IMG/VR virus record: IMGVR_UViG_3300009466_000003
Coordinates: 1 to 58,194 of that record
Strand: one strand, 5' to 3'
Source of the DNA: a virus
Lineage: Duplodnaviria; Caudoviricetes
Length of the DNA stretch: 58,194 nt
The notes beneath the pieces are model-generated. The model was not told the DNA's origin. It worked only from the letters and a program-made list of their open reading frames with translations, and searched no databases. Below, in pieces: positions 6,213-50,549 of this stretch (the stretch's first letter is position 1; every line of letters starts with the position of its first letter). The translations under genes were made by a program, and so were the position numbers.

Positions 6213-6815
6213 ATGACTACAGCATATATCTGTGGCCCGATGCGGGGCTATCCAAAACTAAATCACGATGCCTTTTTTGAGGCCGAAGAAGAATTAATCA
6301 AAACTGGAAGAAAGGTAATCAATCCTGCCAGAATGGATTTAGAGCTTGGATTAGACCCCTACAATTCCCAGATGGATGCGAAGTTTATTGAGGAAGCCGC
6401 CAAGCGTGATATTAACGCAGTTTTTGAGTGCGACGAAATTGTTGCTCTTTGCAATTGGGAAAAATCCAAGGGGGCCAGAGCGGAAGTTGCTGTGGCCCAA
6501 TGGCTTGGAAAAACCTTGCGTCTCTATCCATCTTTGATTAGATTGGACAAAGAAGATGTGTGCGATATTGCCAAACGTCTTACTTCCTATGATCGGCAAA
6601 CAGACTACGGAAGTCCGATTGAAGACTTTACCAAACAGGCCAAGATGTGGGGAGCCATCCTTGGAGTCAATGTAACCCCGCAACAAATTGCTATGTGCAT
6701 GATTGCCGTGAAACTCAGCCGTCTTACCAACTCACCCCGTCATCGGGATAGTGTGGTGGACATCGTCGGCTATGCGCGGTGTTTAGATCTCTGCAACCAA
6801 GCAACCTCTCTATGA
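6213..6815 (+). CDS. DUF4406 (nucleoside deoxyribosyltransferase-like) fused to DUF6378 (dNTP pyrophosphatase-like)
   Basis: YICGPMRG...VINPA...WEKSKGARAE, then DRQTDYGSP...KLSRL...DSVVDIVGYA. Confidence 0.75.
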   Translation: MTTAYICGPMRGYPKLNHDAFFEAEEELIKTGRKVINPARMDLELGLDPYNSQMDAKFIEEAAKRDINAVFECDEIVALCNWEKSKGARAEVAVAQWLGKTLRLYPSLIRLDKEDVCDIAKRLTSYDRQTDYGSPIEDFTKQAKMWGAILGVNVTPQQIAMCMIAVKLSRLTNSPRHRDSVVDIVGYARCLDLCNQATSL

Positions 6816-7600
6816 GCAAAAAAATAGCAGTCCTTTCGGATTTCCATTGCGGCCACAAGGTCGGACTGACCCCGAAAGGCTATCTACCCGAAGAACCAGC
6901 AAACGAACGTGCAAGGTGGGTTCACGCCAACCAAGCCTATTACAACTGGTACAAGAAAAACATCCACCTCCACGGCCCCTACGATATTATTTTCCTTAAC
7001 GGAGACCTCGTAGACGGCACGGGCAAGAAGTCGGGAGGAACCGAACAGATCACCACCGACATGGAAGAGCAGTGTGATATGGCGGTCAAGATCATCCGTG
7101 AAATCCCGAAAACCAAAAACTGTTCCATCGTCATTACCCGTGGGACGCCCTACCATACAGGGGATTCGGAGGACTGGGAAAACATTATCGCAGATAGGGT
7201 GGGGGCGGCTATTGGAGAACATGAATGGGTAGACGTAGAAGGGGTCGTATTTGACCTTAAACACCACCCAGCAGGCTCCAGCGGCATTCCCCATGGTCGC
7301 CATAGCGGAGTGGCCAGAGATCGTCTCTGGAACCTCATCTGGGCCGAAAAAGAGCTACAGCCCAAGGGGGATGTATTTATCCGCTCCCATGTCCATTACC
7401 ACAACTTCGCAGGAGGACCAGACTGGCTGGCCATGACCACCCCAGCCTTACAGGGATTTGGTAGCCGCTACGGAGCCAGACGCTGCACGGGCATTGTGGA
7501 CTTCGGGTTTATCACCTTCACCGTCAACAAAGGAACATACACATGGCAACCCATCATAGCAAAACTGGAAGAGCAAAAAGCCCCCATGATAAAATTGTAG
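6812..7600 (+). CDS. Calcineurin-like metallophosphoesterase
   Basis: SDFHCG, NGDLVDG, RGTPYH, KHH, RSHVH motifs. Confidence 0.85.
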   Translation: MSKKIAVLSDFHCGHKVGLTPKGYLPEEPANERARWVHANQAYYNWYKKNIHLHGPYDIIFLNGDLVDGTGKKSGGTEQITTDMEEQCDMAVKIIREIPKTKNCSIVITRGTPYHTGDSEDWENIIADRVGAAIGEHEWVDVEGVVFDLKHHPAGSSGIPHGRHSGVARDRLWNLIWAEKELQPKGDVFIRSHVHYHNFAGGPDWLAMTTPALQGFGSRYGARRCTGIVDFGFITFTVNKGTYTWQPIIAKLEEQKAPMIKL

Positions 7601-7833
7601 TCCCGTCATGGGATAGTGTCTGGGATTCCCTAAACGAAGATCGCGGAAAATCAACCATCGAATCCATGAACGCCGATGGATGGAAAACTGTTGTGCAGGC
7701 GGCAGAATCAACGGGACTCTCCCGTCCTCGCGTTAATCATATGGCCCATGAAGGAAAATTGGAGTGGACCAAAAAGCGCGTGTATTCTGGTGGAAAGACC
7801 CGCGAAATGATGTTTGTCAGGCCGAAGGTTTAA
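7543..7833 (+). CDS. Small HTH-like protein
   Basis: WKTVVQAAESTGLSRPRVNHM helix-turn-helix pattern. Confidence 0.5.
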   Translation: MATHHSKTGRAKSPHDKIVVPSWDSVWDSLNEDRGKSTIESMNADGWKTVVQAAESTGLSRPRVNHMAHEGKLEWTKKRVYSGGKTREMMFVRPKV

Positions 7834-8051
7834 GCCTGATCGGCCCGATCACAGCATCCTGACAATCGTTTGCGATTGGATGGATGGGCGCGTTCCGAAG
7901 ATGCGTCGAAAGCAGCCTTGGCTTCTGGCGTGTTGTCTCCGCGCTTGATGCAATCCAAACAATTTCCCAGCCAAGGCCGACCCCCATACCAACCAAGGGC
8001 ACAAGTAAATTGACCTCTATCGCGGTTTCTGGATTGGTGGGGGCAAGTCAT
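7830..8051 (-). CDS. Small Cys-rich protein at the end of the tail-like operon
   Basis: MTCPH...C...CLDC...CC; ATGA-coupled to the upstream gene. Confidence 0.6.
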   Translation of the reverse strand: MTCPHQSRNRDRGQFTCALGWYGGRPWLGNCLDCIKRGDNTPEAKAAFDASSERAHPSNRKRLSGCCDRADQA

Positions 8052-8746
8052 GGAACTACCTCCCAAACATAGTTCCCATCTAAATAAATTCCTTCTGGGC
8101 TATTATACGGTCCCCCATCGGCGCGACCATTTATATTCATAGTCCACATTGATGCGCGTGATGTGTTTTCATTTGGGGTGTTATATCTAAGTTCTACAAT
8201 ATTACCACCACTGTATCTTGAATCAAATCCAGACCAAAGGCACACATCTTGTCTTGTTATGGTAAAAGTGCTGGCTGGTGATCCGCCAACAAAATCATCA
8301 TAAGTGTTTACAGTGTAAGTGTCGGCAAAGTCATCTGGATACATTCCCAATCCAGAATCTCCACCAAGACAATTGCCAACAATTCCGCATGCAAAATCTA
8401 CACAGGTTCCCCACCCAACTTCTGGAATTAGCTGAAAAAATCCTAAATAACCAATATTTCCATATCCTCCGAATGGCCCAGTATAATTATCGAAGTAATA
8501 AGCGAGCAATGGCCCGCCTTCAGTATTTACAATTTCTGGTTCCGAAAGCTTGACCAATGATCCATCGTTCATTGTGTCTGGCAAATCTTCAAAAGAATAA
8601 AATCCGTTCACAAGCCCTTCGGCAGGATACATACAACATCCCTCTGGTGGTTCACAACAAGAACAACTCACCCTGCGATCTCCGCTAACTAATTTGGTAA
8701 TGATGCGGAGTTGGCCCGAAATAAGTTGCGTCTTAATCGTTGACAT
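8048..8746 (-). CDS. Putative tail fibre/receptor-binding protein
   Basis: N-terminal SCSCC...CC, Gly/Tyr/Asp-rich AT-rich body; lies in the structural operon. Confidence 0.45.
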   Translation of the reverse strand: MSTIKTQLISGQLRIITKLVSGDRRVSCSCCEPPEGCCMYPAEGLVNGFYSFEDLPDTMNDGSLVKLSEPEIVNTEGGPLLAYYFDNYTGPFGGYGNIGYLGFFQLIPEVGWGTCVDFACGIVGNCLGGDSGLGMYPDDFADTYTVNTYDDFVGGSPASTFTITRQDVCLWSGFDSRYSGGNIVELRYNTPNENTSRASMWTMNINGRADGGPYNSPEGIYLDGNYVWEVVP

Positions 8747-9151
8747 TTATTCACAATCAACAGTTTCAATCCATTGCAATTCTGTGTCTCGGACACAAAG
8801 AACGTATAATTTATTGTCGTTTGGCCTTGGCGGCAAAATGGTTTCTATTGAATTCTGTTTTTGATCTGCGGCTCTAGTGGCTTGATTTGTTTTGTTTGCA
8901 GAATTTGTTGTCGGCTTGTATTCAACACTGGGCTGTTGTGAAAATTGCAACGAGGGATCTATTTGAGACAAAGCTGCCCTGAGATCTTTATTTGACTGAG
9001 ATTCTTTTTTTAAGAAAAAAGAAACACTATTGGTAGCTTGGGCCTGTTTAAATTCCCTTTCTATCCTCTTGTCTTTTGCCCGACCAAGTCTTGTTTCGCG
9101 AATTTCTTGTTCCAGTTTTTCGCGGGCTGCTCTTTTTTCAAAAAGATTCAT
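8747..9151 (-). CDS. Hypothetical structural-operon protein
   Basis: 134-aa ORF abutting both neighbours. Confidence 0.6.
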   Translation of the reverse strand: MNLFEKRAAREKLEQEIRETRLGRAKDKRIEREFKQAQATNSVSFFLKKESQSNKDLRAALSQIDPSLQFSQQPSVEYKPTTNSANKTNQATRAADQKQNSIETILPPRPNDNKLYVLCVRDTELQWIETVDCE

Positions 9152-11868
9152 TACGCAAATATACTGGCATCAATTGTGGTTGCTCTAACAATAGAGAACC
9201 CATACTTGAAAAATTCCACGCTGCTGTCTATCAAATATTTTCCACTGGTGGGTATTGATGTTGGAGATGTTGATCCGAGGTTTGCGCGTATAAAAGCTGT
9301 GTCGCTCGTATTGCCTCCATCGGTTGTTACCAATGATGAAAAAATAAAATAACTGGCAGTTTTGGCGGTTGCTATTGCTGTTGCGGAAACCGTTCTTGTT
9401 TCGTTGATATTAATATCTGAATGCAAACATGGCGGAATATTAATTGATATGGGGGTTATGGATCTTGAGAAATCCCTTTGTTTGGATTGATCTGTATATC
9501 CTCCAAATACTGATGGTTTGGGTTGTTGAACCGATATTGATGCAGTTACGCCGACTGTTATCCTAACTTCAACGCCCTTGCCAGTAATTGTGTGACTTTT
9601 AGGTTTGAAGGTGGGCCACTCCAGTGCGTTTACTTTTCCAAGGATTGCCGCCTTGGTTACGGGGTTTCTCAAAAAGAAAATATTGACTGTCGCTGGTATA
9701 TTCTGGCCCCACACATCTTTGAAGTTAAGATTAACAAGGGGTGTTGCCGAAGAATAGGACGAAGCCTCGCCCTTATCAGCGTTTGAAAATTGATATATTT
9801 CTCCAGCAGCAACTGGGGTGTTTTCATATGTTCCCTCTTGTGTTTTTTCATCCCACTCAATATCGATGGACTCCAAGACCCTTGGAAGATTCAGATTAAT
9901 AGTCGTTGGATGGGTTTGTAAAAATGAATTAAGATAAGACTCTATCTCGTTTTGATCATATTCTGTTACGAGATATCTGGTGTTATCTATGGGCGTGGCT
10001 TCAGAAGAGGACCCCACTGGGAGGGTCGTTGATATTTTTTCGGTGTATGGTATTTGAACGTCGAAAGATTCTTCATAATCAATACCATTAAGCTCTGGGA
10101 TACTTTTTTCGTCTCTTGTTGTGGTAGATTTTCTTACCCGAAATTCTGTAACTCTTTCTTCTGTTTTTTCCAGTTCGCCTTCTTCAAGAGACAAATCACT
10201 TAATGAATCTTGCTCGACAACTTCTTGTTCTGTTTTTGTTTCTACGCTTGCCCTGAATCTTTCTGGGAGAACATCTGGCTTTGAAACACTCAGCGTTTTG
10301 TTATCGAACGGCGCATCAACCCTGACTTCGGTTTTAATAGTCCGTCCATCTCCCAAAGCCTCAATAGATCCATCAATCAATAATGCATCTGGCTGAATGG
10401 ATTGTGCTTCGCTTGAAAGTCTCAGCGTTCTTTCGGCAAGCTGCCCTTGATTGGTTACAATAAACTCTGTGAGATCTGTCGTTGCCGAAACATCCCGATT
10501 GGTGACAGAGGTTCGCTTGATAAATTCCGTGACCTGTTCTTCTGACTTGGAAAATTCCCCCTCACCAAGAGATATGCTTGTGGATATTGTTCCAGCCACA
10601 CTCTCTTCGGTTATTGTGTCTTCTTGCTGCGCCTTAAATTTTTCGGGTGTAAGATCTGGTTTTGTTTTCCGTATGGTTTTATTTGGGAATACGTTTGGAA
10701 CCTCTACCTCCGTTTTTACTGTTCGCCCATCACCAAGTTCCTCAACACTGGCATCGATAAGTGTGGCTGATGGTGTAAATGATTGGGTTCCCGAAGACAG
10801 CGTAAGCGTTCTGGCTCCAATTTGTCCTTGCGGGGTCAGAACTTTTTCATTAAGTGTAACCGCCGAAGTAATGGAACGAGATGTGGTGGCGACTCGTTTG
10901 GTGAATTGATTGATCTGTTCTTCTGATTTTACAAACTCTCCCGCGCCCAAAATGATATTTGGATTGGCTGTTCCAGCAATTGTTTGCTCAAAAGTGGTGT
11001 CTGATTGCGCGGCTTTGAATTTCTGGGGAGTAATATCCTCTTTGGTTTTTCGGTATACTGCCGCACCAAAAACTTCAGGAACTTCAACAACTCGTTCGAC
11101 CAAGGATTCGGCGTCTTCCCGCGAAACTTCCACAGTCCTTGTCGCGCTTGGACTTGGCGGAATATATCCATCAGCCCCCTTTCGTTGGGTGGTGACAGTT
11201 GCCAGTTGTCGGGCTTCGTCGGTAGCTTTTCCAATCAGTTGCGGGCCGTCCACCGAATAAGTCTGGACAATCTTTACCGAAAGAAATTCATTGTAAGGTT
11301 CGTAGGAAGTCTGAGTGATGACTCCGTTGACGTTCTCCAGAGACCCGACCTCTTCTCCTGTGGGGACAAAGAGTTGTCGGCGTTCTTGGACGGGACCGCG
11401 GGATGCATCATAAAAATCCCGATCCCGAACAGGGAAAAGGGAATTGCCATCATCGTCGGTTTCAATCGACCAAGTCTCCTCAATTTCGGTATAGACAATA
11501 GCCGAACCCTCGCGGGCCTCGTAGGTAACCCGTTTGTCGGCGGTAAGGCTGGCTACTTGTCCTTCGTTTTTAACAGAGCGGCGTCTACCTTGAATCGGGC
11601 CTAGATCATCATCGTAGCGGGTAAACGGCACCCAAGGAGATGGAAGGATCTCGTAGACATGGGTAACAATCTGATCTCCCGAAGACGGTTGGGCACCCGT
11701 AAAAACATGGTTGGGGTAACGTTTGGAATCGGGGTGAGGGCTAAGATCTTCTGGAACCCTGTAGCCAGCAACGCGAGGATCTTTTTTAATCCCGATTACA
11801 GGGAAATCGCGGTCATTGGCCGCATAGGAGACAACGTAGAATTTGTCAAAAGGAGGATAGGAAGCCAT
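9151..11868 (-). CDS. 905-aa putative tail protein with three ~125-aa internal repeats
   Basis: Thr/Glu/Val-rich beta-type sequence; repeat unit LGDGRTxKTEV...KxKPDxxPExF(K/R)A...L(G/E)xGExxKxEExxxxFxxR. Confidence 0.6.
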   Translation of the reverse strand: MASYPPFDKFYVVSYAANDRDFPVIGIKKDPRVAGYRVPEDLSPHPDSKRYPNHVFTGAQPSSGDQIVTHVYEILPSPWVPFTRYDDDLGPIQGRRRSVKNEGQVASLTADKRVTYEAREGSAIVYTEIEETWSIETDDDGNSLFPVRDRDFYDASRGPVQERRQLFVPTGEEVGSLENVNGVITQTSYEPYNEFLSVKIVQTYSVDGPQLIGKATDEARQLATVTTQRKGADGYIPPSPSATRTVEVSREDAESLVERVVEVPEVFGAAVYRKTKEDITPQKFKAAQSDTTFEQTIAGTANPNIILGAGEFVKSEEQINQFTKRVATTSRSITSAVTLNEKVLTPQGQIGARTLTLSSGTQSFTPSATLIDASVEELGDGRTVKTEVEVPNVFPNKTIRKTKPDLTPEKFKAQQEDTITEESVAGTISTSISLGEGEFSKSEEQVTEFIKRTSVTNRDVSATTDLTEFIVTNQGQLAERTLRLSSEAQSIQPDALLIDGSIEALGDGRTIKTEVRVDAPFDNKTLSVSKPDVLPERFRASVETKTEQEVVEQDSLSDLSLEEGELEKTEERVTEFRVRKSTTTRDEKSIPELNGIDYEESFDVQIPYTEKISTTLPVGSSSEATPIDNTRYLVTEYDQNEIESYLNSFLQTHPTTINLNLPRVLESIDIEWDEKTQEGTYENTPVAAGEIYQFSNADKGEASSYSSATPLVNLNFKDVWGQNIPATVNIFFLRNPVTKAAILGKVNALEWPTFKPKSHTITGKGVEVRITVGVTASISVQQPKPSVFGGYTDQSKQRDFSRSITPISINIPPCLHSDININETRTVSATAIATAKTASYFIFSSLVTTDGGNTSDTAFIRANLGSTSPTSIPTSGKYLIDSSVEFFKYGFSIVRATTIDASIFA

Positions 11869-11879
11869 TTGGTCACGAA

Positions 11880-11908
11880 AACTTACTCTAAAAAAGGTTG
11901 AGCGGCAA
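11880..11908 (-). promoter_or_regulatory. Promoter for the tail-like operon, very short leader
   Basis: Minus strand TTGCCG-17-TAAGTT ending 11 nt before the ATG. Confidence 0.5.
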
Positions 11909-11921
11909 GATGATTTTCCGC

Positions 11922-11949
11922 TTGCATTGATTAATGGCTATGCTAGATT
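11922..11949 (+). promoter_or_regulatory. Promoter for the intergenic sRNA
   Basis: TTGCAT-16-TAGATT with extended -10 TG. Confidence 0.55.
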
Positions 11950-11955
11950 ACCACC

Positions 11956-12031
11956 TTGGAAGGCCACTCGGTCTTCCTGTTTTCATGTGTGTGGGGCGGG
12001 GTCGGGCTAAAAACTCGGCCCCGCTTTTTTT
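11956..12031 (+). ncRNA. Putative ~76-nt sRNA: hairpin, 17-nt single-stranded segment, intrinsic terminator
   Basis: GGAAGGCC/GGTCTTCC stem; linker TGTTTTCATGTGTGTGG; GCGGGGTCGGG/CTCGGCCCCGC stem plus T7; no upstream + strand gene to terminate. Confidence 0.6.
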
Positions 12032-12078
12032 GAACGCTTGACAAGTTGGGTTGTCGGATCTACTGAATCCTTATCAAT

Positions 12079-12705
12079 ATGGCATATCAATCCAACAAAC
12101 CTAAAGACCCACCACTCTACCACAGCAACCTCGTCAAAGGAGGCCCGAAACTTGTGTCAATCAAGTCGGCTCCTAAATGGGTGAAGCAGAACACCTTATG
12201 CGTAATCGAAGTTATTGTGGACGGCGTGACCCATGTCTACTTCACGGAAAACCGCGACATCGCCTCCAAGTTTCAGCAATATGTGGGCAAGTCAGTAGTC
12301 TTGATTGCCTCTGGCAACTCCAAGCAGAAGACTGATTCCATGGAGATCCAGCCTGCTGGGGTGCCCGCCTCCAGCCTTCCCGCCGCCCAGAGTGCCCCGC
12401 AATCGCCTCAGAAGCCCGTAGAACAGGTTATTACGGCCCCAGCCCACAAGGACAAGGAAGCCAAGCAATTCCTCTGTCAGGCGGCAAATCTGATGCGCCT
12501 ATGCGTCAAGAAGGCCAACGACATTGCGGTGGAACTTAACCTTCCCGAACAACACCGTCAGGGAATTGCGACCACGTTATTTATTCAAGCAGACCGACAA
12601 GGACATATTGCGGCCATGCCCATCACGGCGTATACTCCCGAACAATTGGGTTTCGGGGCAAGCAAGGCCGAATCCCTCAAGAACCCCGAACCAAACAATG
12701 ACTGA
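12079..12705 (+). CDS. Hypothetical protein, possibly ssDNA-binding/recombination
   Basis: Beta-rich N-domain, Pro/Ala/Gln linker, helical C-domain; TTGACA at 12038; upstream of the exonuclease. Confidence 0.5.
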   Translation: MAYQSNKPKDPPLYHSNLVKGGPKLVSIKSAPKWVKQNTLCVIEVIVDGVTHVYFTENRDIASKFQQYVGKSVVLIASGNSKQKTDSMEIQPAGVPASSLPAAQSAPQSPQKPVEQVITAPAHKDKEAKQFLCQAANLMRLCVKKANDIAVELNLPEQHRQGIATTLFIQADRQGHIAAMPITAYTPEQLGFGASKAESLKNPEPNND

Positions 12706-12955
12706 TGAACGAGAGCGCGGCATCGAAATTCTGTCGCATGATAAGGGATCATTCCTCGTTCAGAGTCGCACCAATAGAGAAGACTACTACATGGTGGAGT
12801 TCACTACCGATGAGGCGGGAGACATCACGGGGTGTGCCTGCTCTTGTCCAAGCTATCAATTCCGCAAAGAGTGCTTCCACATCCGCTACCTCTGCAAACT
12901 CTTGGGCGTCGAAACGCCGAAGCCAACAAACAACAACCAACTAATAGCAGCATAG
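12698..12955 (+). CDS. SWIM zinc-finger protein
   Basis: CSCPSY...ECFHI (CxC...CxH). Confidence 0.75.
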   Translation: MTDERERGIEILSHDKGSFLVQSRTNREDYYMVEFTTDEAGDITGCACSCPSYQFRKECFHIRYLCKLLGVETPKPTNNNQLIAA

Positions 12956-12958
12956 AAT

Positions 12959-13120
12959 ATGAAAAAATCCAAGGGACAAAAGAAAGTGGCAACCGTCATG
13001 CGCGAATACAGCAAGGGCAAACTCAAAAGTAGTTCGGGCCAAAAGGTGACCAACCCTCGCCAAGCGCGAGCAATTGCAATGTCGGAAGCTGGACTCAGTA
13101 AAAAAAAGAAGGGCAAATAA
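12959..13120 (+). CDS. 53-aa basic DUF6496-like protein (not in ORF track)
   Basis: KVATVMREYSKGKLKSSSGQKVTNPRQARAIAMSEAG. Confidence 0.75.
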   Translation: MKKSKGQKKVATVMREYSKGKLKSSSGQKVTNPRQARAIAMSEAGLSKKKKGK

Positions 13121-13126
13121 TCCTTT

Positions 13127-13198
13127 GGCGGGGTGCGCTACTGTTCGCAAGGACGTAGTTGCGCTTAATATGGGGTCGCTCCATGCCCCGCTCTTTTT
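13127..13198 (+). terminator. Three-way-junction RNA element ending in a U-tract
   Basis: Outer GGCGGGGT/GCCCCGCT stem enclosing a GCAA-tetraloop hairpin and an ATGGGG/CTCCAT hairpin, then CTTTTT. Confidence 0.5.
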
Positions 13199-13231
13199 GA
13201 ACAAATCAATCACACACCTGTCAAAGCACAT

Positions 13232-13705
13232 ATGATCACAAAATCTTCATGGAGGATTAACAATCTCTTGCAATGGCGTGATAAAAATCCAGAGCTATAC
13301 AAAGAGAAGTGGCTCAAGGGGATTCGGAGTTCTAAGAAAATAAAAGAAGCGGCGAGGATTGTGTCTTTTAAATATCGCAAAAAAGCAACCATAACCAGAC
13401 TTGCCCTTCCTAAATTTCAAAAGGGAGAACAGCATTTTCGTTCTTCTGTTTGGAGGTTTCGTTCTCCCAAGAATGTTGTTTATGAATTTAAAAACTTGTC
13501 GGAATTTTTACGCACTCATGGCAATCTTTTTGATATTAAAGATTTACAGTGGAAACGTCTTGGGACATCAGATTTATGTAATGCTTATAAATGTCTTTCG
13601 GCGCTTCGCCCACACCTTTCAAATGGAACCCCGAAACAAAAAGTTGCGGGATCTTGGAAGGGATGGCGCTGGTATGCCAGCAAAGAAGTAGAGGAAAAAC
13701 TATGA
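13232..13705 (+). CDS. Basic NUMOD-like DNA-binding protein (homing-endonuclease derived)
   Basis: AT-rich; WRFRSPKNVVYEFKNLSEF...SWKGWRW; no nuclease core recognised. Confidence 0.5.
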   Translation: MITKSSWRINNLLQWRDKNPELYKEKWLKGIRSSKKIKEAARIVSFKYRKKATITRLALPKFQKGEQHFRSSVWRFRSPKNVVYEFKNLSEFLRTHGNLFDIKDLQWKRLGTSDLCNAYKCLSALRPHLSNGTPKQKVAGSWKGWRWYASKEVEEKL

Positions 13706-14574
13706 CCATATCGAATATCTACAATCTCCCCCAGCCGTTCGTTGACTTGGTCAGCGAGTCTTCGTATTCGGCGGGGGAGGCTGATATTACTACAACAAGT
13801 CTCTTCCAACCTCCGAAGATTCGGGAGTTGATGAAACGGCATGGGGACAAAATTACTGAGGATGCGTCTGATAGAGTCTGGGTAATGCTTGGAACCGCTA
13901 ATCATTATGTTTTAGAGAAGATAGCAAAGAAAAACCCCGAAAGATACATTTGTGAACAGAGGTATTACATGGATGTGGACGGCGTGAAACTCGGAGGCCA
14001 GATCGACCTCTATGACAAGCAAGAGCAAATCCTTTATGACTACAAGGTCAGCAGTGTCTACAAGGCCATGAGCGATGATCGCTTTGAGTGGACGGCACAA
14101 GCGGCGGTCAACCGACTGCTATTGGAACATAATGGTTATCCAGTCAAGCGTTCTGCCATCATCTTGGTAATGAAGGATTTCCGTTTGCGGGATTCCAAGA
14201 TCAAAGCCGACTATCCGAAGTGTCCTGTGGTGGAAATCAAGCTGGATGCGTGGAAGCCCGAAGAAACATTTGCATATATCAAAAGTCGGATTACACTCCA
14301 CCAGCAAGCCAAAGACCTTCCCGATGACCAGATCCCGATCTGCACACCAGAAGAGCGGTGGGAAAAACCCACCATCTATGCAGTCCTTCCGAAAGAAGGA
14401 GCGAAACGTGCCGTTAATGGAGGGCTGTACGAATCTGAATCTGAGGCTTTGCTCCACGCAAAAAGAATTTCTGGTGCCGTCGAGAGACGGGAGGGGAGTT
14501 GTACGAGGTGTCTGGACTTCTGTCGCGTTAGGCAATACTGTTCATTCGGAAAAACCCTAAAAACCAACCAATAA
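13702..14574 (+). CDS. PD-(D/E)XK exonuclease (Cas4/RecB-like, Cys-rich C-terminus)
   Basis: LGGQIDLYD...YDYK motif; CTPEERW and RCLDFCRVRQYC. Confidence 0.85.
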   Translation: MTISNIYNLPQPFVDLVSESSYSAGEADITTTSLFQPPKIRELMKRHGDKITEDASDRVWVMLGTANHYVLEKIAKKNPERYICEQRYYMDVDGVKLGGQIDLYDKQEQILYDYKVSSVYKAMSDDRFEWTAQAAVNRLLLEHNGYPVKRSAIILVMKDFRLRDSKIKADYPKCPVVEIKLDAWKPEETFAYIKSRITLHQQAKDLPDDQIPICTPEERWEKPTIYAVLPKEGAKRAVNGGLYESESEALLHAKRISGAVERREGSCTRCLDFCRVRQYCSFGKTLKTNQ

Positions 14575-14576
14575 CT

Positions 14577-14810
14577 ATGAAAAAGAAATTTAGCAAAACA
14601 GTAACCAACCCCGATACGGGGCGAAAGAAGACCGTCAAATACGGAGCAAAAGGCAGCAAGATTGGGCCTATTGGCAGCGCCCGTGCCGATGCCTACTGTG
14701 CCCGAAGCAACAAGATTAAGGGCAATTGGCGCAATGATCCCAACTCTCCTAATCGCCTTTCCCGCAAGAAATGGGGATGCCAAGGAAGCAAATCAGTCAA
14801 AAAGAAATAA
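14577..14810 (+). CDS. Small basic phage protein (DUF6321-like)
   Basis: KTVKYGAKG...AYCARS...PNSPNRLSRKKWGC. Confidence 0.65.
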   Translation: MKKKFSKTVTNPDTGRKKTVKYGAKGSKIGPIGSARADAYCARSNKIKGNWRNDPNSPNRLSRKKWGCQGSKSVKKK

Positions 14811-14815
14811 CCACT

Positions 14816-14953
14816 ATGAAAAAACGAGGACTATACGACAACATCAATGCAAGGAAAAAGGCTGGCACCAGCCGCCCGAAATCCAAATCCACCATCGATC
14901 CCAAGGTCTACAAGAAGATGAAGGCCAAGAAGGGTGGGTTCAAAGAAAAATGA
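14816..14953 (+). CDS. 45-aa Lys-rich protein
   Basis: MKKRGLYDNINARKKAGTSRPKSKSTI; coupled to the next gene. Confidence 0.6.
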   Translation: MKKRGLYDNINARKKAGTSRPKSKSTIDPKVYKKMKAKKGGFKEK

Positions 14954-15177
14954 AACCACATCCAGACGATAGTATCTTCAAGGTCAAAGACTTCATCAAC
15001 GAACTCTCAAGGGTTCAGGATGCCTACTTTGAATCCCTTTGCTTTGAGCTTGGATTAGATGGCGAAGATCAACTCCGAGATCATCTATTCGACTATATCT
15101 ATAACGAAACAGAGATGATCACCTTTGGAGAATATTTGGATAAGTTTGGTATCGGGGATCTTTGGGACGGGCTGTGA
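14950..15177 (+). CDS. Hypothetical acidic protein
   Basis: ATGA and GTGA coupling to its neighbours. Confidence 0.6.
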   Translation: MKPHPDDSIFKVKDFINELSRVQDAYFESLCFELGLDGEDQLRDHLFDYIYNETEMITFGEYLDKFGIGDLWDGL

Positions 15178-15959
15178 CCCTCAACATATTCACGATTGTC
15201 CTTGATGGCTCTCCGTGGATCGGGGCGCAGTTTGCGGAGTTGTGCCGATTAAGAGACGTTGACTGGCATTGGTCGATTGTTGAGGGTGCGGCGATGCCCG
15301 TCAAAGATACGGGATGGATGGGCAACCAGACGGGAAAAGTCTCCCATGATGGAACCCATCAATTTTTACAAGCCCTAGCTTCCCATCCCCGAATCACGGT
15401 TAATAGCAAGTCGGAATGGGGTGGTAAAACGGAGATGATCAATGCGGCGTTGACCGCCTTTAAAAAAGACGGCGTCTTACTCCAAATGGATAGTGATGAG
15501 TTGTGGACGTTCCACCAAATGATTGAACTCCTATATCTGTTTGAGAAAAATCCCGAAGCCAATACCGCACAGTTTGAAATGGATTACATGCTTGGGCCGA
15601 ATGTAAAATCAACATCCACAGATGGTTACGGTAACAGAAAGAGTGAATGGATTCGGGCTTGGCGGTATAGTGTCGGGCTTTGGATGGAGCGCCATGAACC
15701 TCCCGTGTTCAACGGTAATCGCGGACAACTCCTAGATCGCGGCAAGACCTCAATGAGTGTAGGCAAAATCCTCCACATGGCATGGGTAACCCCGCAACAA
15801 GTAGCCCAGAAACAACGTATATACAAAGGTGGATACGAGAATGCCTGCGAGGATTGGGACAGACTTCAAAAGAATACGCAATGGCCCGTCAAGGATCTCA
15901 AACAGTTTCTACCATGGGTTGGTAGCGGGGCTTCGGCTGATTTACTTTTCAAGCAATAA
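15174..15959 (+). CDS. GT-A fold glycosyltransferase-like protein
   Basis: IFTIVLDG, IVEG, SHDGT, QMDSDELW (DxD) and HE motifs. Confidence 0.75.
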   Translation: MTLNIFTIVLDGSPWIGAQFAELCRLRDVDWHWSIVEGAAMPVKDTGWMGNQTGKVSHDGTHQFLQALASHPRITVNSKSEWGGKTEMINAALTAFKKDGVLLQMDSDELWTFHQMIELLYLFEKNPEANTAQFEMDYMLGPNVKSTSTDGYGNRKSEWIRAWRYSVGLWMERHEPPVFNGNRGQLLDRGKTSMSVGKILHMAWVTPQQVAQKQRIYKGGYENACEDWDRLQKNTQWPVKDLKQFLPWVGSGASADLLFKQ

Positions 15960-15966
15960 TCCGCTA

Positions 15967-15995
15967 TTGACCTTCTAGAGAAGGCATGGTAATTT
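15967..15995 (+). promoter_or_regulatory. Promoter of the virion/ejection operon with an inverted repeat over the spacer
   Basis: TTGACC-17-TAATTT, extended -10 TG; CCTTCT-ag-AGAAGG at 15971-15984. Confidence 0.65.
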
Positions 15996-16005
15996 CGCGG
16001 GCAAA

Positions 16006-36874: not shown

Positions 36875-37093
36875 TTAGACATAGGAATCCTCCTGACGTT
36901 GGCATTCCTCGCGGATTGCCGCCAGATCTTCGACATAGGGCAAACATCCAAGGTGGATACAGGCATCCAATACTTGGGCGTCCCCGAACTCGTTGCAGAT
37001 GTTGAACAAGGGACGGGACTGGTAGGTCTTGCCGTTAAGCTTTATACCTTCCCAGAATTCCCAATGGTCGTTGCCCAGTGCATCAGTCCACAT
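36875..37093 (-). CDS. Hypothetical early protein
   Basis: ORF in the packed early operon. Confidence 0.5.
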   Translation of the reverse strand: MWTDALGNDHWEFWEGIKLNGKTYQSRPLFNICNEFGDAQVLDACIHLGCLPYVEDLAAIREECQRQEDSYV

Positions 37094-37289
37094 GGCAGAC
37101 CTCCGTTTCCTTGATCATGCGGTAGGCTTTTATGGTGTCGCGGATATCGTCGCGTCTCCATTTTCTGACCAGACCGAAGTCTGATTGGTTGCGGGATTTG
37201 AGTCCGTTGCGGATGGCACGGGACAAGACCGCATCCATCAACATCAGGTTTTCCAGTGAGGGTTTAAACTTTCCGATTTTAGTTTTCAT
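37083..37289 (-). CDS. Hypothetical early protein
   Basis: MKT start, ATGA-coupled. Confidence 0.6.
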   Translation of the reverse strand: MKTKIGKFKPSLENLMLMDAVLSRAIRNGLKSRNQSDFGLVRKWRRDDIRDTIKAYRMIKETEVCHVD

Positions 37290-37468
37290 ATGTATTGTTC
37301 TCCGCGCACGTTGTAGAGGTTTGCCATCTTGCGGCGTAAGCGAATGCGCTTTTTGATATCTTTCCGAAACTCAGGGTTGCGGATGAATGGCTTGTGGTAG
37401 TGGTTAACGAGCAACAAGCAGGACATGAGCATGACTTGCTCATCCATTGTTAGTTCGACTGTTTTCAT
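37286..37468 (-). CDS. Hypothetical early protein
   Basis: MKT start with CACC context. Confidence 0.6.
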   Translation of the reverse strand: MKTVELTMDEQVMLMSCLLLVNHYHKPFIRNPEFRKDIKKRIRLRRKMANLYNVRGEQYI

Positions 37469-38345: not shown

Positions 38346-38521
38346 AGCGTTTTTCCTTTCGATGGGGCTGAAGTGACGACAGCCTTGCAAGCCGCTCGCG
38401 CTGCTGCCTCGACTCTGTCGATAGCTTCCTGACTGACTCTGGAAAACTTGTGGGCGCGGTTAGCCTCCGCGAATTCCAGAATGAATTTTTTGACTTTGGA
38501 TTTGTTGATCAGTGTGTTCAT
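38342..38521 (-). CDS. Histone-fold protein (bacterial type, lacking alpha3), 59 aa
   Basis: LINKSKVKKFI (alpha1), SRVSQEAIDRV (L1/alpha2), KGKTL (L2); pattern as I recall it for Bdellovibrio Bd0055-type histones. Confidence 0.7.
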   Translation of the reverse strand: MNTLINKSKVKKFILEFAEANRAHKFSRVSQEAIDRVEAAARAACKAVVTSAPSKGKTL

Positions 38522-38691
38522 GGTGTGGTTTTGTTTTTGCAGATTGTGACCAGCATTTCTTGGGTAATCCTTGTCCCGCATGGGGCAAGGTATTCCATCT
38601 CGACTGACGGGAAATCGGGGCTAGTCACCCTTTTCCCATCGAACAGGCAAGGCACTTGCTCGCCTGCAATATTCAACGTGATTGTTTTCAT
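38518..38691 (-). CDS. 57-aa early protein (MKTITLNIAGEQVPC...; not in ORF track)
   Basis: ATGA-coupled on both sides. Confidence 0.55.
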   Translation of the reverse strand: MKTITLNIAGEQVPCLFDGKRVTSPDFPSVEMEYLAPCGTRITQEMLVTICKNKTTP

Positions 38692-39537: not shown

Positions 39538-40581
39538 CTAGTTCAGGGCAGTGGCGAGCGTGACTCGCGCACCTAGTTCTTCCAGTGCCTCGCGGCGATT
39601 GGAATCGCGGATCAGGGTGAGGAAGCGTTCTTTATGCTCCGCCGCCGAACCGAATTCCGAACGATAAGTTTTGACCAGTGAGGTTCCAGTTTTTCCGACT
39701 CCATCCCCGTGGGTATAGAATTCGGTGACTCCATTGACAAGATCGTAGAGAGTCTCTCCACGATTGCCCTTGCCCGTGCGAAACGTCGAGACGATGCCGT
39801 CCACAGTGTTTGCCGTGCGCGTAGCGAATTCGGTATTTCCGCCCTGCAAACGGGAGAAATATCCGTTGATGATGCGCCGTGCTTTCACGATATCGCATTT
39901 GATCCCCGCCAGATGCGCGAGTGCCTCGACCATGTCGGTTTGCTTGTTCCGCATGGCGACGAGGATTTCGGGCAAGGCGTCGAGTTGCATATCGGCGTTT
40001 TTGGTATGGAATATCTTTACCTTAACGTCCGATGAATCGATGGATGCGCGGACAGTGTTCCAGCAGACTTGTCGGAATCCGCAAATCGTGGAGACCAGAG
40101 CATCAGTGCCATCGTGGGAGGTTGCAAGGTTAAGGTAGAACGTCCAGCGATCCCCCTCGCGCAATTCCACTTCGTAGCTTTGTGCCTGTTGCAGGGAGAT
40201 GAAGAACGAGCGACCCCTTCGGACTGTTCCAGCGGTCACGATTTCGGCGTCGAGTCCGAAATTTTCAATTGCGTTTTTCACCGCATTGAAAACCTCACGA
40301 TTGGAAATGACCCGATAGTCTTTCCCCATGATGGAAAGCGGAACAAGTTGCTCCCCTTGGGGAATGTCATCGCGAAAGCGATAGTCCGCCACGATTGCTT
40401 TTTTATTTTCCAGCGAGACTTGCTCGCCATCGATGTTCACCGCGATTTCGCCCTCGACCATGCGGGGCATAATGGGGGTGATGGTTTCTTCGTTTATGAC
40501 AGGAGTCACGATAGCTTTCCCGTGCCATTCGCGGGAAACCTTGCTGTAGACCTTGTCAACTGTTGCGTCGATCATATCCAT
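39538..40581 (-). CDS. DUF932/DUF945 family protein
   Basis: WHG, YRVISNREVF, TAGTVRRG, TSHDG, RQVCWNT, HTKN, TLYDLVNGVTEFYTH. Confidence 0.85.
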   Translation of the reverse strand: MDMIDATVDKVYSKVSREWHGKAIVTPVINEETITPIMPRMVEGEIAVNIDGEQVSLENKKAIVADYRFRDDIPQGEQLVPLSIMGKDYRVISNREVFNAVKNAIENFGLDAEIVTAGTVRRGRSFFISLQQAQSYEVELREGDRWTFYLNLATSHDGTDALVSTICGFRQVCWNTVRASIDSSDVKVKIFHTKNADMQLDALPEILVAMRNKQTDMVEALAHLAGIKCDIVKARRIINGYFSRLQGGNTEFATRTANTVDGIVSTFRTGKGNRGETLYDLVNGVTEFYTHGDGVGKTGTSLVKTYRSEFGSAAEHKERFLTLIRDSNRREALEELGARVTLATALN

Positions 40582-41745: not shown

Positions 41746-42456
41746 CTAGATTTGGACAACGAATCCTGACAGATCCTTTCGCGCTTTGCCCTTGGCCTTA
41801 AGCCCGACAACGCATCCGCGAGGATCTAGAAAGCGCAAATCGGACTCATCCCCATCCACTACGGGCTTGCCCTGATAGCTTTCGGGAAGCTTGGCAGAGG
41901 AAAAGACGATTGCGACATTCCCCCCGCTGCCAAGGATGGAAAGCGCAACCTGCCCGTTATCCTCTGACCTGCTGAAGGTCAGTTGATAGTTTGACGGCAT
42001 TTTCCCTTCAAGATAAGCCGCAATCCGATTCGGATTTTTGGTGTAATCGTAAAACTGAATCGCGGGGAATCGTTCCATGATGTTGGCAAAGCTTCCGCAT
42101 GGGATTTTTTCCCACGGGAGATCACTTGTCCCATTTAAACGGACGCATGGAGTCATGCCCGCTTTGCTGGCCTTTTTGACAAGCCGCGCAACATCCCCCG
42201 CGAGGGTTTCCATGAATGCGGAGCGGTCTTGAACGAATGCCAGCGTCTTTGCAACGCGAGCGGAGCGGACATTATCAAACGCCCCGCGCCCCGCCGTGAA
42301 TAGGCAAGCCGCCGCGCATCCTGCTGACGCATGGGGGCAAACGTTAATCGCTCCCGATTCTTTAACGGGGGCAAGGTAGAGAATGCCCGTCAGGAATCCC
42401 TTGGCCTGCCCTTTGATTGTTTTTGCGTTGGTGTCGATTGATAGGAGTGTTTTCAT
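41746..42456 (-). CDS. GP88 family (radical-SAM-like) protein
   Basis: CPHASAGCAAACL, RLNGTSD, QFYDYTK, LTFSRSE, DGDESDLRFLDP, VGLKAKG; alternative start 42516. Confidence 0.8.
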   Translation of the reverse strand: MKTLLSIDTNAKTIKGQAKGFLTGILYLAPVKESGAINVCPHASAGCAAACLFTAGRGAFDNVRSARVAKTLAFVQDRSAFMETLAGDVARLVKKASKAGMTPCVRLNGTSDLPWEKIPCGSFANIMERFPAIQFYDYTKNPNRIAAYLEGKMPSNYQLTFSRSEDNGQVALSILGSGGNVAIVFSSAKLPESYQGKPVVDGDESDLRFLDPRGCVVGLKAKGKARKDLSGFVVQI

Positions 42457-42512
42457 TGGTGTTGGTGTTGGTGTTGGAGTATTGCCCCCTACGGGGAAGA
42501 TCTCAATCTTTT

Positions 42513-50520: not shown

Positions 50521-50549
50521 TTGACAGTGTGGCCACCCTTAGTTATTTT
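50521..50549 (+). promoter_or_regulatory. Promoter P1 of the ncRNA locus
   Basis: TTGACA-17-TATTTT. Confidence 0.7.

What the first reader, a model, noticed from the sequence alone, without database searches (positions are those of the whole stretch)
11922..12031. Stand-alone sRNA whose exposed segment is antisense to the shared start codon region of early genes
Seen: between two divergent genes there is a + strand promoter, a 5' hairpin, a 17-nt unpaired linker UGUUUUCAUGUGUGUGG and a strong intrinsic terminator that has no upstream gene to terminate. The linker is the reverse complement of CCACACAC-AUG-AAA-ACA. Four minus-strand early genes begin ATG AAA ACA (starts 37468, 38691, 42456, 42647), a fifth begins ATG AAA ACT (37289), and others begin CACC-ATG-AAA-CA (36695, 39254, 39465) with AC-rich upstream context. 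Inference: one guide-like sRNA could block the initiation sites of many early mRNAs, or of host mRNAs, in a system that lacks Shine-Dalgarno sites, acting as an early-to-late switch. I know of no described example. Caveat: MK/MKT starts are common, so chance matches are plausible.
Basis: partly seen in the sequence, partly recalled or inferred. Interest (0 to 1): 0.82.

Follow-up and report, generated by a model that had tools for sequence, protein, structure and literature searches.

The report
Conserved small RNA gene of a phage
A family of uncultured aquatic phages carries a self-contained gene for a roughly 75-base RNA whose exposed G/U-rich stretch is conserved while its two hairpins change, so it is very likely a real regulatory RNA, but which messages it acts on is still unproven.

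Summary
At 11922-12031 (+) there is a promoter, a 5' hairpin, the unpaired UGUUUUCAUGUGUGUGG and a strong terminator, between divergent genes.

- **Distribution:** the unit is single-copy. It is present in 42 of 44 relatives found through the leftward gene, and the other two contigs end before it. It is present in 64 of 64 found through the rightward gene.
- **RNA structure:** both helices covary (15 of 18 pairs changed on both sides; 0 of 500 shuffles reach this). Insertions in relatives fall just outside its borders.
- **Minus-strand ORF:** not conserved.
- **Interpretation, partly supported:** across the wider family the constant part is AUG plus a (UG)n run, about 88% G+U. The U4 that matches "AAA AC" is not constant. 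In the window, pairing to start regions is no better than shuffled linkers give. An ortholog-level test over 11 genomes gives modest support for a few conserved start regions.
- **Evidence gaps:** RNA-library evidence is inconclusive and the host is unknown.
- **Closest mechanism in print:** the G/U-rich seed R1 of GcvB.

First readers of this scan noted the same element in five other genomes.

The parts
11880..11908 (-). Inferred promoter of the divergent 905-aa gene. The -35 TTGCCG is at 11908-11903 and the -10 TAAGTT at 11885-11880, with a 17-nt spacer. It leaves a leader of about 5 nt before ATG 11868. Its -35 and that of the sRNA promoter form the inverted repeat GCAAG-N11-CTTGC.
   Evidence: Sequence. 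The blocks are conserved in the alignment of relatives. The transcription start is inferred, not shown.
11922..11949 (+). Promoter of the small RNA: -35 TTGCAT (11922-11927), 16-nt spacer, extended -10 TGcTAGATT (11941-11949).
   Evidence: TTGCA[T/A] and TA..T[T/A] are kept in all 37 distinct units while the spacer varies freely. The consensus scan did not call it.
11958..11977 (+). 5' hairpin: 8 bp with loop ACUC. The RNA probably begins at about 11956-11958.
   Evidence: The window has an extra C-G pair through a paired 2-nt insertion. Relatives show G.U to A-U and G.U to G-C changes, and a different stem (GAGGG/CCCUC) in the second subgroup. In helix 1, 5 of 7 pairs changed on both sides.
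11978..11994 (+). Single-stranded G/U-rich segment UGUUUUCAUGUGUGUGG (15 of 17 bases are G or U). This is the proposed seed.
   Evidence: Unpaired probability 0.59-1.0 over the first 13 nt. GTTTTCATGTGT is kept where both stems are replaced. Family-wide, ATG is in 62 of 62 properly parsed loci, as is a (TG)3-type run.
11996..12031 (+). Intrinsic terminator: 11-bp G+C-rich stem (11996-12006 with 12014-12024), loop CUAAAAA, U7 at 12025-12031.
   Evidence: In helix 2, 10 of 11 pairs changed on both sides and 100% of cells are paired. It is the strongest of the 4 strong terminators found in the window, and the relatives have 2-4 each. On the minus strand no U-run follows the stem.
12030..12057 (+). 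Promoter region of the next operon, starting inside the U-tract. It holds TTGAACG (12030-12036), TTGACA (12038-12043) and TGTCGG (12052-12057).
   Evidence: Sequence. TTGAACG-N15-TGTC is kept upstream of the 208-aa gene in all subgroups inspected, whereas TTGACA is not. Function is inferred.
7535..7545 (+). Candidate target: start region ACAUACACAUG of a conserved 96-aa gene (7543-7833).
   Evidence: Duplex of -17.3 kcal/mol with CAUGUGUGUG. It is the best ortholog group with the 15-nt cores, score -2.34. Computational only.
37282..37298 (-). Candidate target: start region of the conserved 68-aa MKTKI gene (37083-37289).
   Evidence: -17.3 kcal/mol, 14 bp with 2 G.U pairs. Third-ranked ortholog group. 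Computational only.
38516..38528 (-). Candidate target: CCACACCAUGAAC at the start (38521) of a conserved 59-aa gene.
   Evidence: -18.8 kcal/mol. Fourth-ranked ortholog group. Computational only.
42448..42464 (-).
   Evidence: Duplex of -15.5 kcal/mol. The ATG is an internal candidate start of ORF 41746-42579.

Best explanation
This is a self-contained gene for a non-coding RNA of about 75 nt.

Expression and anatomy:
- A sigma-70-type promoter with an extended -10 (11922-11949) starts the RNA at the foot of a protective 5' hairpin.
- A 13-17-nt G/U-rich stretch stays single-stranded.
- A strong intrinsic terminator ends the RNA directly in front of the promoter of the next operon.

Proposed action: the RNA acts in trans by base pairing. 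Its (U)CAUG(UG)n core pairs with C/A-rich leader plus AUG regions of mRNAs and keeps the 30S subunit off start sites that have no Shine-Dalgarno sequence. GcvB seed R1 acts in this way on C/A-rich enhancer elements.

The best phage candidates are:
- the start of the 96-aa gene at 7543;
- the start of the 68-aa MKTKI gene at 37289;
- the start of the 59-aa gene at 38521;
- the orthologues of the 347-aa gene 39538-40581.
Host mRNAs may be the main targets but could not be examined.

Shown:
- the anatomy;
- single copy per genome;
- presence throughout the phage clade;
- covariation of both helices;
- conservation of the single-stranded core;
- non-conservation of any ORF.

Inferred:
- transcription start and expression;
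- action in trans;
- pairing at start sites;
- the identity of the targets.
For: (1) Gene-like module.
- The -35 and -10 boxes and the TG are kept while the spacer is free. The unit holds a hairpin, a linker and a terminator, and the 37 distinct sequences each fold the same way on their own.
- 42 of 44 loci found through the 905-aa gene carry it. The other two contigs end before the region.
- 64 of 64 loci found through the 208-aa gene carry it.
- The covariance model finds one hit per locus and none elsewhere in the window.
- 34 viral contigs hold the exact 19-mer once each. One of them (L138) is an unrelated chance match.

(2) RNA-level selection.
- 97.8% of cells are paired and 15 of 18 pairs have changes on both sides, against a shuffle mean of 5.7. 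0 of 500 shuffles reach this, and slid controls give 5-7.
- This alignment was fitted to the model and includes L138 as 1 of 36 distinct rows.

(3) Stems versus core. Stems are replaced outright in subgroups while GUUUUCAUGUGU stays.

(4) Module borders. An HNH-like gene sits just left of the -35 in L005 and L008. In L019/L184 it sits just after the U-tract. In L205 it sits after the downstream promoter region.

(5) Conservation. The intergenic DNA is 82-93% identical in 33 loci, where the flanking coding DNA is about 75-80%.

(6) Rarity of terminators. Strong terminators number 2-4 per genome, and this one is the strongest in G001-G004 and the window; G005's copy fell outside that scan's T-run criterion.

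(7) Targets.
- The seed is 88% G+U, the figure given for GcvB R1 (passages of PMC7769764).
- In the ortholog-level scan of 87 groups in 11 genomes, the best group scores -2.34 against a same-permutation null of -1.37 +/- 0.32. 1.5% of 195 permutations reach it.
- The second group scores -2.01, and 0 of 195 permutations have a second-best that low.
- Independent shuffles gave 0 of 40.
- 7 of 84 starts against 11 of 600 internal ATGs pair at -14 kcal/mol or below.
Against: Expression is not shown.
- Both RNA libraries laid (X7 and X20) are from the same study as the source sample, and neither shows a discrete small transcript. Only X7 covers the unit, with one 311-nt contig over 11769-12079.
- That contig also spans the presumed untranscribed promoter region. 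It is therefore DNA carry-over or a longer transcript, not a discrete sRNA.

Within the window the linker pairs with start regions no better than controls:
- 15 sites at -12 or below, matched by 71% of CAU-keeping shuffles, 32% of plain shuffles and 24% of genomic CAT-17-mers.
- Top-5 mean matched by 37%, 8% and 27% respectively.

Further points against:
- Mean energies of starts and internal ATGs are equal (-8.31 against -8.25, p = 0.75).
- A (UG)n run pairs promiscuously: there are 34-43 sites at -15 or below per group-1 genome on both strands.
- No site among the top 40 per genome is shared by both subgroups.
- In the ortholog test the reversed cores gave a single group at -2.55, better than the real best.
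- That test takes the minimum over up to 4 candidate starts, includes shadow ORFs, and 4 of the 11 genomes share one linker.
- The top candidates differ in strength between genomes. For example, the 347-aa gene scores -20.6 in G001 and G003 but -12.1 in the window.
- Linker variants could not be matched to changed targets, because the records with variant linkers do not reach the small-gene region.
- The host is unknown, so host targets and any chaperone are untested.
Confidence: 0.42

Rival explanations
1. One reading: one guide-like RNA blocks the AUG-AAA-AC(A) starts of many early genes, or of host genes, and so drives an early-to-late switch.
For: - ATGAAAACA occurs 7 times, all on the minus strand, against 1.12 expected. 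It is the joint top ATG-9-mer.
- Four or five small minus-strand genes at 37-43 kb begin this way.
- Relatives also have ACACATGAAAAC-like sites above the reversed-pattern control: 10 v 4, 10 v 3, 7 v 6, 8 v 2 and 4 v 1, each including the element itself.
- The MKTKI gene keeps such a start in 6 of the 7 genomes in which it was found.
Against: - The U4 opposite AAAA is missing in 20 of 63 parsed loci (16 of 26 distinct linkers), and CAU is lost in 5 of 64.
- L017, L018 and L020 changed UGUUUUCAU to AUUUAUCAU or AGUUAUCAU.
- There is no excess of pairings over shuffles that keep CAU.
- MK starts are the commonest start anyway: ATGAAA in 11 of 93.
- The best ortholog-level candidate (7543) lies in the rightward block with virion-type neighbours, not among the small genes.
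- Timing classes are unknown.
Confidence: 0.12
2. A conditional terminator in a leader. Transcripts from the upstream promoter either stop, giving a by-product RNA, or read through into the rightward operon under control of a factor. Models are the lambda PR'-6S-tR' system and the 5'UTR terminators of virulent Pseudomonas phages.
For: - The layout is promoter, short terminated RNA, then operon, and it recurs at 50521-50630 in this window.
- Virulent phages have many such units: 42 terminators in 5'UTRs, for example an RNA of about 71 nt in phiKZ with over 90% termination (section 20 of PMC10914365).
- Lambda 6S is itself found bound to Hfq (passage of PMC12197685).
Against: - A separate conserved promoter region lies between the terminator and the gene in all subgroups.
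- The unit stays intact when an HNH-like gene is inserted between it and the operon (L184).
- The spacer between -35 and -10, where lambda Q binds, is not conserved.
- No antiterminator family appears among the 25 Pfam or 25 PHROG families listed for 87 proteins. 12 further Pfam and 27 further PHROG families were not shown.
- A simple by-product would not need an invariant single-stranded core.
Confidence: 0.13
3. A protein-binding RNA, acting as decoy or sponge. The AUG(UG)n tract next to a hairpin is a binding site for a host or phage RNA-binding protein rather than a pairing seed.
For: - What is constant across the whole family is a simple G/U repeat of variable length, (UG)3 to (UG)7, rather than a fixed sequence.
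- L185 and L186 carry two UUCAUGU copies and no 5' hairpin, as sponges with repeated sites do.
- No unique strong mRNA partner emerged.
Against: - No candidate protein is known.
- No RNA-chaperone family appears among the listed families.
- One or two sites per RNA is few for a sponge.
- The modest ortholog-level pairing signal would be unexplained.
Confidence: 0.15
4. The conserved sequence serves a short minus-strand gene (MKTGRPSGLPRW), or acts only at the DNA level as an operator or an alternating purine-pyrimidine tract.
For: - The reverse complement CCACACAC-ATG-AAA-ACA looks like a typical start site of this phage.
- The two -35 boxes form an inverted repeat that could be an operator.
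Against: - The ORF is 6 to 31 codons long in different relatives, and the window has a frameshift after MKTGR.
- Codons 2-3 change non-synonymously (KT to IN or IT).
- The ATG is lost in L015 and becomes TTG in L008.
- The changes in the stem are pair-preserving, as for RNA.
- No minus-strand promoter or upstream minus-strand gene is present.
Confidence: 0.04

Closest known systems
GcvB sRNA, seed region R1 (enterobacteria)
   Same: - A G/U-rich single-stranded seed, given as 88% G/U. The linker here is 15 of 17 G or U.
- It pairs with C/A-rich elements in or upstream of ribosome-binding regions of many mRNAs and represses their translation (passages of PMC7769764).
   Different: - No sequence or family relation: there is no Rfam hit.
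- This RNA is phage-encoded and much shorter (about 75 nt).
- Its seed lies directly against the terminator and contains the complement of AUG.
- The genome lacks Shine-Dalgarno sites.
- Targets and chaperone are unknown.
Phage antisense and trans-acting RNAs that block translation starts: P1/P7 c4, P22 sar, Qin-prophage DicF, lambda PreS
   Same: Small phage or prophage RNAs that pair at or near ribosome-binding sites of phage (c4, sar) or host (DicF with ftsZ, PreS with dnaN) mRNAs (passages of PMC12197685; abstract listing of bioRxiv 10.1101/2024.10.31.621285).
   Different: - Those come from temperate phages of enterobacteria and have defined single or few targets.
- sar and OOP are cis-antisense. 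Here no gene lies on the opposite strand.
- This phage shows no integrase or repressor among the listed families, and no exact copy with the unit's context was found in 185,579 species genomes. That scan gave 14 chance hits.
Short RNAs ended by terminators just downstream of promoters in virulent Pseudomonas phages (phiKZ, PAK_P3, YuA and others)
   Same: Promoter, RNA of 70-250 nt, terminator, then a gene. They are conserved within a phage genus and their function is unknown (section 20 of PMC10914365).
   Different: Those were mapped by sequencing and show read-through into the gene from the same promoter. Here a second promoter region follows the terminator and expression is not shown.
Lambda PR'-6S RNA-tR' with Q antitermination
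   Same: A constitutive promoter gives a short terminated RNA in front of an operon.
   Different: - The spacer where Q would bind is not conserved.
- No Q-like family is listed.
- A second promoter region is present.
- The features of the lambda system are recalled, not taken from a call.

Membership tests
Trans-acting base-pairing sRNA with its own promoter and intrinsic terminator | Independent transcription unit without a conserved ORF | tested here: met
   Promoter boxes and terminator are conserved. Insertions respect the borders. Plus- and minus-strand ORFs are not conserved.
Trans-acting base-pairing sRNA with its own promoter and intrinsic terminator | Conserved, accessible single-stranded seed | tested here: met
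   Unpaired probability 0.59-1.0. The core is kept while the stems change.
Trans-acting base-pairing sRNA with its own promoter and intrinsic terminator | Seed-target complementarity above chance and kept in relatives | tested here: inconclusive
   No excess in the window (means). Modest ortholog-level signal and tail excess. A reversed control reaches a similar best score.
Trans-acting base-pairing sRNA with its own promoter and intrinsic terminator | Accumulates as a discrete small transcript | tested here: inconclusive
   One metatranscriptome contig covers 11769-12079, including the promoter. Contigs cannot show ends or strand.
Trans-acting base-pairing sRNA with its own promoter and intrinsic terminator | Regulation of targets, chaperone dependence | not testable with these tools
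   Host unknown; no experiment possible.
GcvB (Rfam family) or any other curated RNA family | Match to the family's covariance model | tested here: not met
   0 matches at gathering scores in the whole window. At E of 10 or less, the only hits in 11850-12100 are L20_leader at 15.6 bits and COG2908 at 13.8 bits, far below their cut-offs.
Cis-antisense phage RNAs (OOP, sar type) | A target gene encoded on the opposite strand of the same DNA | tested here: not met
   The unit lies in a gap between divergent genes. The only minus-strand ORF there is not conserved.
Q-type late-promoter leader (lambda PR'-tR') | Conserved factor-binding sequence between -35 and -10, and a single promoter for the operon | tested here: not met
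   The spacer is variable. A second conserved promoter region lies after the terminator.
Q-type late-promoter leader (lambda PR'-tR') | Antiterminator protein encoded by the phage | tested here: inconclusive
   None among the 25 listed Pfam and 25 listed PHROG families of 87 proteins. Further families were not shown, and most proteins have no family.
5'UTR conditional terminators of virulent phages | Two transcript forms from one start: short, and read-through | not testable with these tools
   Needs end-mapped RNA from infected cells. Only contigs of two metatranscriptomes were on hand.

The most novel reading that the evidence does not exclude
The phage clade encodes a general 'anti-leader' riboregulator for a translation system without Shine-Dalgarno sites. 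A G/U-repeat seed carrying the complement of AUG masks C/A-rich leader-plus-start regions on a set of phage mRNAs, and possibly many host mRNAs. One 75-nt RNA made by the host polymerase would then re-programme which messages are translated during infection. The variable (UG)n length would tune its reach.
Probability: 0.15. Interest if true: 0.75.

Novelty: new member of a known kind. Interest (0 to 1): 0.45.

Why it matters
Almost all functionally understood phage small RNAs come from temperate phages of enterobacteria. Here a whole clade of uncultured aquatic phages of about 70 kb keeps one small RNA gene. Evidence for selection on its structure is unusually clear, and its single-stranded core is nearly fixed. 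It is also in no curated RNA family. That makes it a well-defined, cheaply testable candidate (75 nt, one seed, a short list of candidate start sites).

If the seed does act on C/A-rich leaders and start codons, it would show how RNA-based control of initiation works where no Shine-Dalgarno pairing exists. It would also carry the GcvB-type mechanism over to a phage. If it does not, the unit is still a useful marker and a compact promoter-terminator module of this clade.

Tried and rejected
**Named relatives and host**
- blastn of 11000-13500 and tblastn of the 905-aa protein against 50,697 phage records found nothing.
- DnaB tblastn gave only hits of 33% identity or less, to unrelated phages.
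- An exact 18-mer scan of 185,579 species genomes gave 14 hits. None has the hairpin or terminator context, and by my own estimate about 17 were expected by chance. No prophage copy and no host clue came out of it.

**Curated RNA families and tRNA**
- None.

**RNA evidence**
- Two metatranscriptome runs of the source's own study hold parts of 8000-16000 (shares 0.12 and 0.06).
- Laid as contigs, they cannot show ends or strand. Parts without cover say nothing.

**Do linker variants track changed gene starts?**
- The records with AUUUAUCAU, AGUUAUCAU, CAAUG or AAUG linkers are fragments (15-39% complete). They cover only window positions of about 0.3-30 kb.
- No further record with the variant exists in the viral collection. 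The test could not be made.

**Other searches for a target**
- Extended pairing beyond the linker: no site with fewer than 5 mismatches to the 21-nt complement in six genomes.
- Shared motif TGTGTGTGG: 13 matches at 1 mismatch or fewer against 8.85 expected, so not enriched.
- TTTGAACG: 5 against 2.77 expected, so not enriched as a word, although its placement is striking.

**Alignment and parsing**
- The MAFFT alignment of all variants mis-registers the second subgroup's hairpin, so RNAalifold on it gave only 13 pairs. I used a model-guided alignment instead, which leans towards the structure.
- L065 was not found by the model at E of 1 or less.
- L138 is an unrelated chance match that entered alignment A4.
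- My regex censuses missed or mis-parsed L170, L184, L188, L192, L197, L205 and L210. I checked L170, L184, L188, L192 and L205 by eye and with the model. L197 and L210 are the contigs of L023 and L065, seen.

**Other checks**
- Phage sigma factor: region 2 gave none. Region 4 gave 17 bits, below the 25.7 cut-off, in 56131-56901.
- A plus-strand mini-ORF from the linker AUG was rejected. The frame shifts with (TG)n length, and stops appear in some variants and not in others (sequences).

**Literature limits**
- Supplementary tables of PMC10914365 (ncRNA lists) and PMC12197685 (38 sRNAs without function) were not open. They could hold comparable units.
- Literature searches were only, so I make no claim that the family is absent from print.
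Full report
**What is there**

The window is a linear IMG/VR virus record of 58,194 bp, estimated 80% complete. Positions 11869-12078 are a 210-nt gap between a 905-aa gene on the minus strand and a 208-aa gene on the plus strand. Reading rightward, the gap holds:
- TTGCAT (11922-11927), a 16-nt spacer, then TGcTAGATT (11941-11949);
- six bases, then an 8-bp hairpin (11958-11977);
- UGUUUUCAUGUGUGUGG (11978-11994);
- an 11-bp G+C-rich hairpin (11996-12024) and U7 (12025-12031);
- starting inside the U-run, TTGAACG, TTGACA and TGTCGG, ahead of the ATG at 12079.

The 83-nt stretch folds at -39.1 kcal/mol, z = -5.2. With a start at 11956-11958 the first 13 linker bases are unpaired with probability 0.59-1.0. 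The consensus scan did not call the promoter. It is weak in the -35 (3 of 6) and rests on the TG-extended -10 and on conservation. No curated RNA family and no tRNA match.

**Relatives**

The phage has no named relative. The viral collection, however, holds a clade.

The 905-aa protein found 44 loci at 46-76% protein identity.
- The gap is 82-93% identical at the DNA level in 33 of them. The flanking coding DNA is about 75-80% identical.
- Two loci have a more distant version of the gap.
- Seven have a second form of the unit.
- Two contigs end before the region.

Anchoring on the 208-aa gene instead gave 64 loci. All of them carry the unit upstream.

Three complete relatives with terminal repeats are 68.5-72.8 kb. 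The unit is single-copy. There is one model hit per locus and none elsewhere in the window. The exact 19-mer occurs once in each of 34 contigs, one of which (L138) is an unrelated chance match.

**Evidence that it is an RNA gene**

- *Promoter pattern.* The -35, the TG and the -10 are kept in all 37 distinct units while the spacer is free.
- *Structure.* Every variant folded alone gives 5' hairpin, open linker, terminator.
  - The window's own hairpin is one pair longer through a paired C...G insertion.
  - Relatives show G.U to A-U or G-C changes.
  - The second subgroup uses a different hairpin (GAGGG-N8-10-CCCUC) and a different terminator (GCGGGGGGUAGG...CCUGCCCCCCGC), yet keeps GUUUUCAUGUGU between them.
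- *Covariation.* On a model-guided alignment of 36 distinct rows, 97.8% of cells pair and 15 of 18 pairs have changes on both sides.
  - 0 of 500 shuffles and none of the slid registers (5-7 pairs) reach this.
  - The alignment is fitted to the structure and includes L138, so the numbers lean upward. The per-sequence folds are independent of that.
- *Module borders.* An HNH-like gene is inserted immediately left of the -35 in L005 and L008. In L019/L184 it is immediately after the U-tract, and in L205 after the downstream promoter region. The unit is intact each time.
- *Rarity of terminators.* Strong intrinsic terminators number 2-4 per genome. This one is the strongest in G001-G004 and the window; G005's copy fell outside that scan's T-run criterion.

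**The minus-strand ORF**

MKTGRPSGLPRW is not conserved.
- The ORF is 6-31 codons long in relatives.
- The window is frameshifted after MKTGR.
- Codons 2-3 change to IN or IT.
- The ATG is lost in L015 and becomes TTG in L008.

A plus-strand mini-ORF from the linker AUG is equally inconsistent (sequences).

**What is conserved in the linker**

The wider set changes the picture. Distinct linkers include:
- UUUUUUCAUGGUGUGUGUUGG;
- AAACAUG(UG)7UUGG;
- UUCAUAUG(UG)5-6;
- CAUAUGUUG(UG)4GG;
- CUAGUGUGUGUAUGUGG;
- forms with two UUCAUGU copies and no 5' hairpin.

Of 62 properly parsed loci, all have AUG and a (UG)3-type run next to the terminator. TTTTCAT is present in 43 of 63 parsed loci (10 of 26 distinct linkers). 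CAU is absent in 5 of 64 loci (L154, L171, L183, L187, L209).

So the constant is a G/U-rich tract, nearly always with (C)AUG. The complement of 'AAA AC' is not constant.

**Tests of the target idea**

In the window:
- The 9-mer ATGAAAACA is over-represented: 7 including the element, against 1.12 expected. It is the joint top ATG-9-mer.
- The other half of the linker is not matched. Only 42448-42464 comes within 3 mismatches of the 17-mer.
- Against 93 objectively called start regions the real linker has 15 duplexes at -12 kcal/mol or below and 7 at -14 or below. 71% and 52% of CAU-keeping shuffles do as well, as do 32% and 18% of plain shuffles and 24% of genomic CAT-17-mers.
- Starts and internal ATG contexts have the same mean energy (p = 0.75). 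The strong tail is richer at starts: 7 of 84 against 11 of 600 at -14 or below. For the reversed linker the shares are 2.4% and 2.2%.
- Genome-wide the (UG)n seed is promiscuous, with 34-43 sites at -15 or below per group-1 genome. No top site is shared by both subgroups.

Across genomes, I ran an ortholog-level test with 11 genomes, each with its own core, over 87 ortholog groups. Five groups come first:
- the 96-aa gene at 7543;
- the 347-aa gene 39538-40581;
- the 68-aa MKTKI gene at 37289;
- the 59-aa gene starting at 38521;
- the gene at 6213.

The null applied one and the same position permutation to all cores. 1.5% of 195 permutations reach the best score (-2.34 against -1.37 +/- 0.32). 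None has a second-best as low as -2.01.

Caveats:
- The reversed cores gave one group at -2.55.
- Up to four candidate starts per ORF were tried.
- Shadow ORFs are in the set.
- Four genomes share one linker.

I read this as modest support for pairing with a few C/A-rich start regions. It is not a demonstration.

**Expression**

Two metatranscriptomes of the source's own study hold parts of the region. One 311-nt contig covers 11769-12079 exactly. This includes the promoter and the first 100 nt of the divergent gene. It therefore reflects DNA carry-over or a longer transcript and says nothing about a discrete 75-nt RNA.

**Context**

- The genome lacks Shine-Dalgarno sites (14 of 93 starts against 10.8% background).
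- Families listed for 87 proteins include DnaB, DnaG, an exonuclease, dCMP deaminase, amidase, holin and methyltransferases. No antiterminator or RNA chaperone is among those shown.
- A second unit of promoter, short hairpin RNA, terminator and promoter lies at 50521-50630. It has a different sequence and is only weakly conserved.

**Comparison with what is known**

- The mechanism I favour is that of GcvB seed R1. It is 88% G/U and targets C/A-rich enhancer elements in or upstream of ribosome-binding regions (passages of PMC7769764).
- Phage RNAs that block translation starts are known, namely c4, sar, DicF and PreS (passages of PMC12197685).
- Short terminated RNAs just downstream of promoters are common in virulent Pseudomonas phages, with unknown function (section 20 of PMC10914365).
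- The unit is a member of none of these families by sequence.

It is best filed as a new family of a known kind.

**Verdict**

| Reading | Probability |
|---|---|
| A real, selected, stand-alone small RNA gene | about 0.8 |
| It acts by pairing its G/U-rich core with C/A-rich leader-plus-AUG regions | about 0.4 |

First readers of this scan flagged the same element in five other genomes with the same reading. That is not independent evidence.

Noticed in passing
window 50521-50700: A second unit with the same layout. TTGACA-17-TATTTT is followed by a long hairpin of about 75 nt (-32.2 kcal/mol, z = -4.0) with a U-run, and then another promoter-like region. Its sequence is unrelated to the first unit, and it is only weakly matched in one of five other genomes.
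   Followed up: partly
window 12030-12057, 50645-50671, 52545-52570; loci L185-L208 upstream of the 208-aa gene: A bipartite motif TTGAACG-N15-TGTC (TGGTC at 50667) sits in front of rightward operons. It is kept upstream of the 208-aa gene in every subgroup inspected, even where TTGACA is absent. From memory it resembles ECF-sigma-type promoters (GAAC...GTC). The only sigma-like hit in the window is a sub-threshold region-4 match (17 bits) in 56131-56901, and there is no region 2.
   Followed up: partly
L184 about 560-1190, L205 about 300-1190, L005 and L008 left of the unit: An HNH-like homing-endonuclease gene (motif ...HIDHIRPL...NLQPL...) is inserted at different places right beside the sRNA unit in different relatives. 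It does not interrupt the unit in any of the four.
   Followed up: partly
window 11903-11927: The -35 boxes of the two back-to-back promoters form an inverted repeat, GCAAG-N11-CTTGC (GCAAGG-N9-CCTTGC in the second subgroup). It is a possible operator controlling both.
   Followed up: no
whole window and genomes G001-G005: Strong intrinsic terminators are very rare, 2-4 per genome of 48-73 kb. Operon ends mostly lack them.
   Followed up: partly
whole window: There is no Shine-Dalgarno enrichment upstream of the 93 called starts. Many small genes at 36-46 kb have A/C-rich leaders. The inferred leaders of the 905-aa and 208-aa genes are only about 5-8 nt long.
   Followed up: partly
L185, L186 (about 1080-1156): In one subgroup the 5' hairpin is replaced by a second copy of the UUCAUGU motif, so that RNA has two such motifs in tandem.
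   Followed up: no
window 12025-12043: The terminator's T-run lies at about -40 to -50 of the next promoter region, where an A/T-rich UP-like element would sit. One sequence may serve both.
   Followed up: no
window 7543-7600: The conserved 96-aa gene, the best candidate target, starts 58 nt inside the 3' end of the preceding ORF (6812-7600). It has an AAGGA 9 nt upstream, one of the few SD-like contexts in the window.
   Followed up: no
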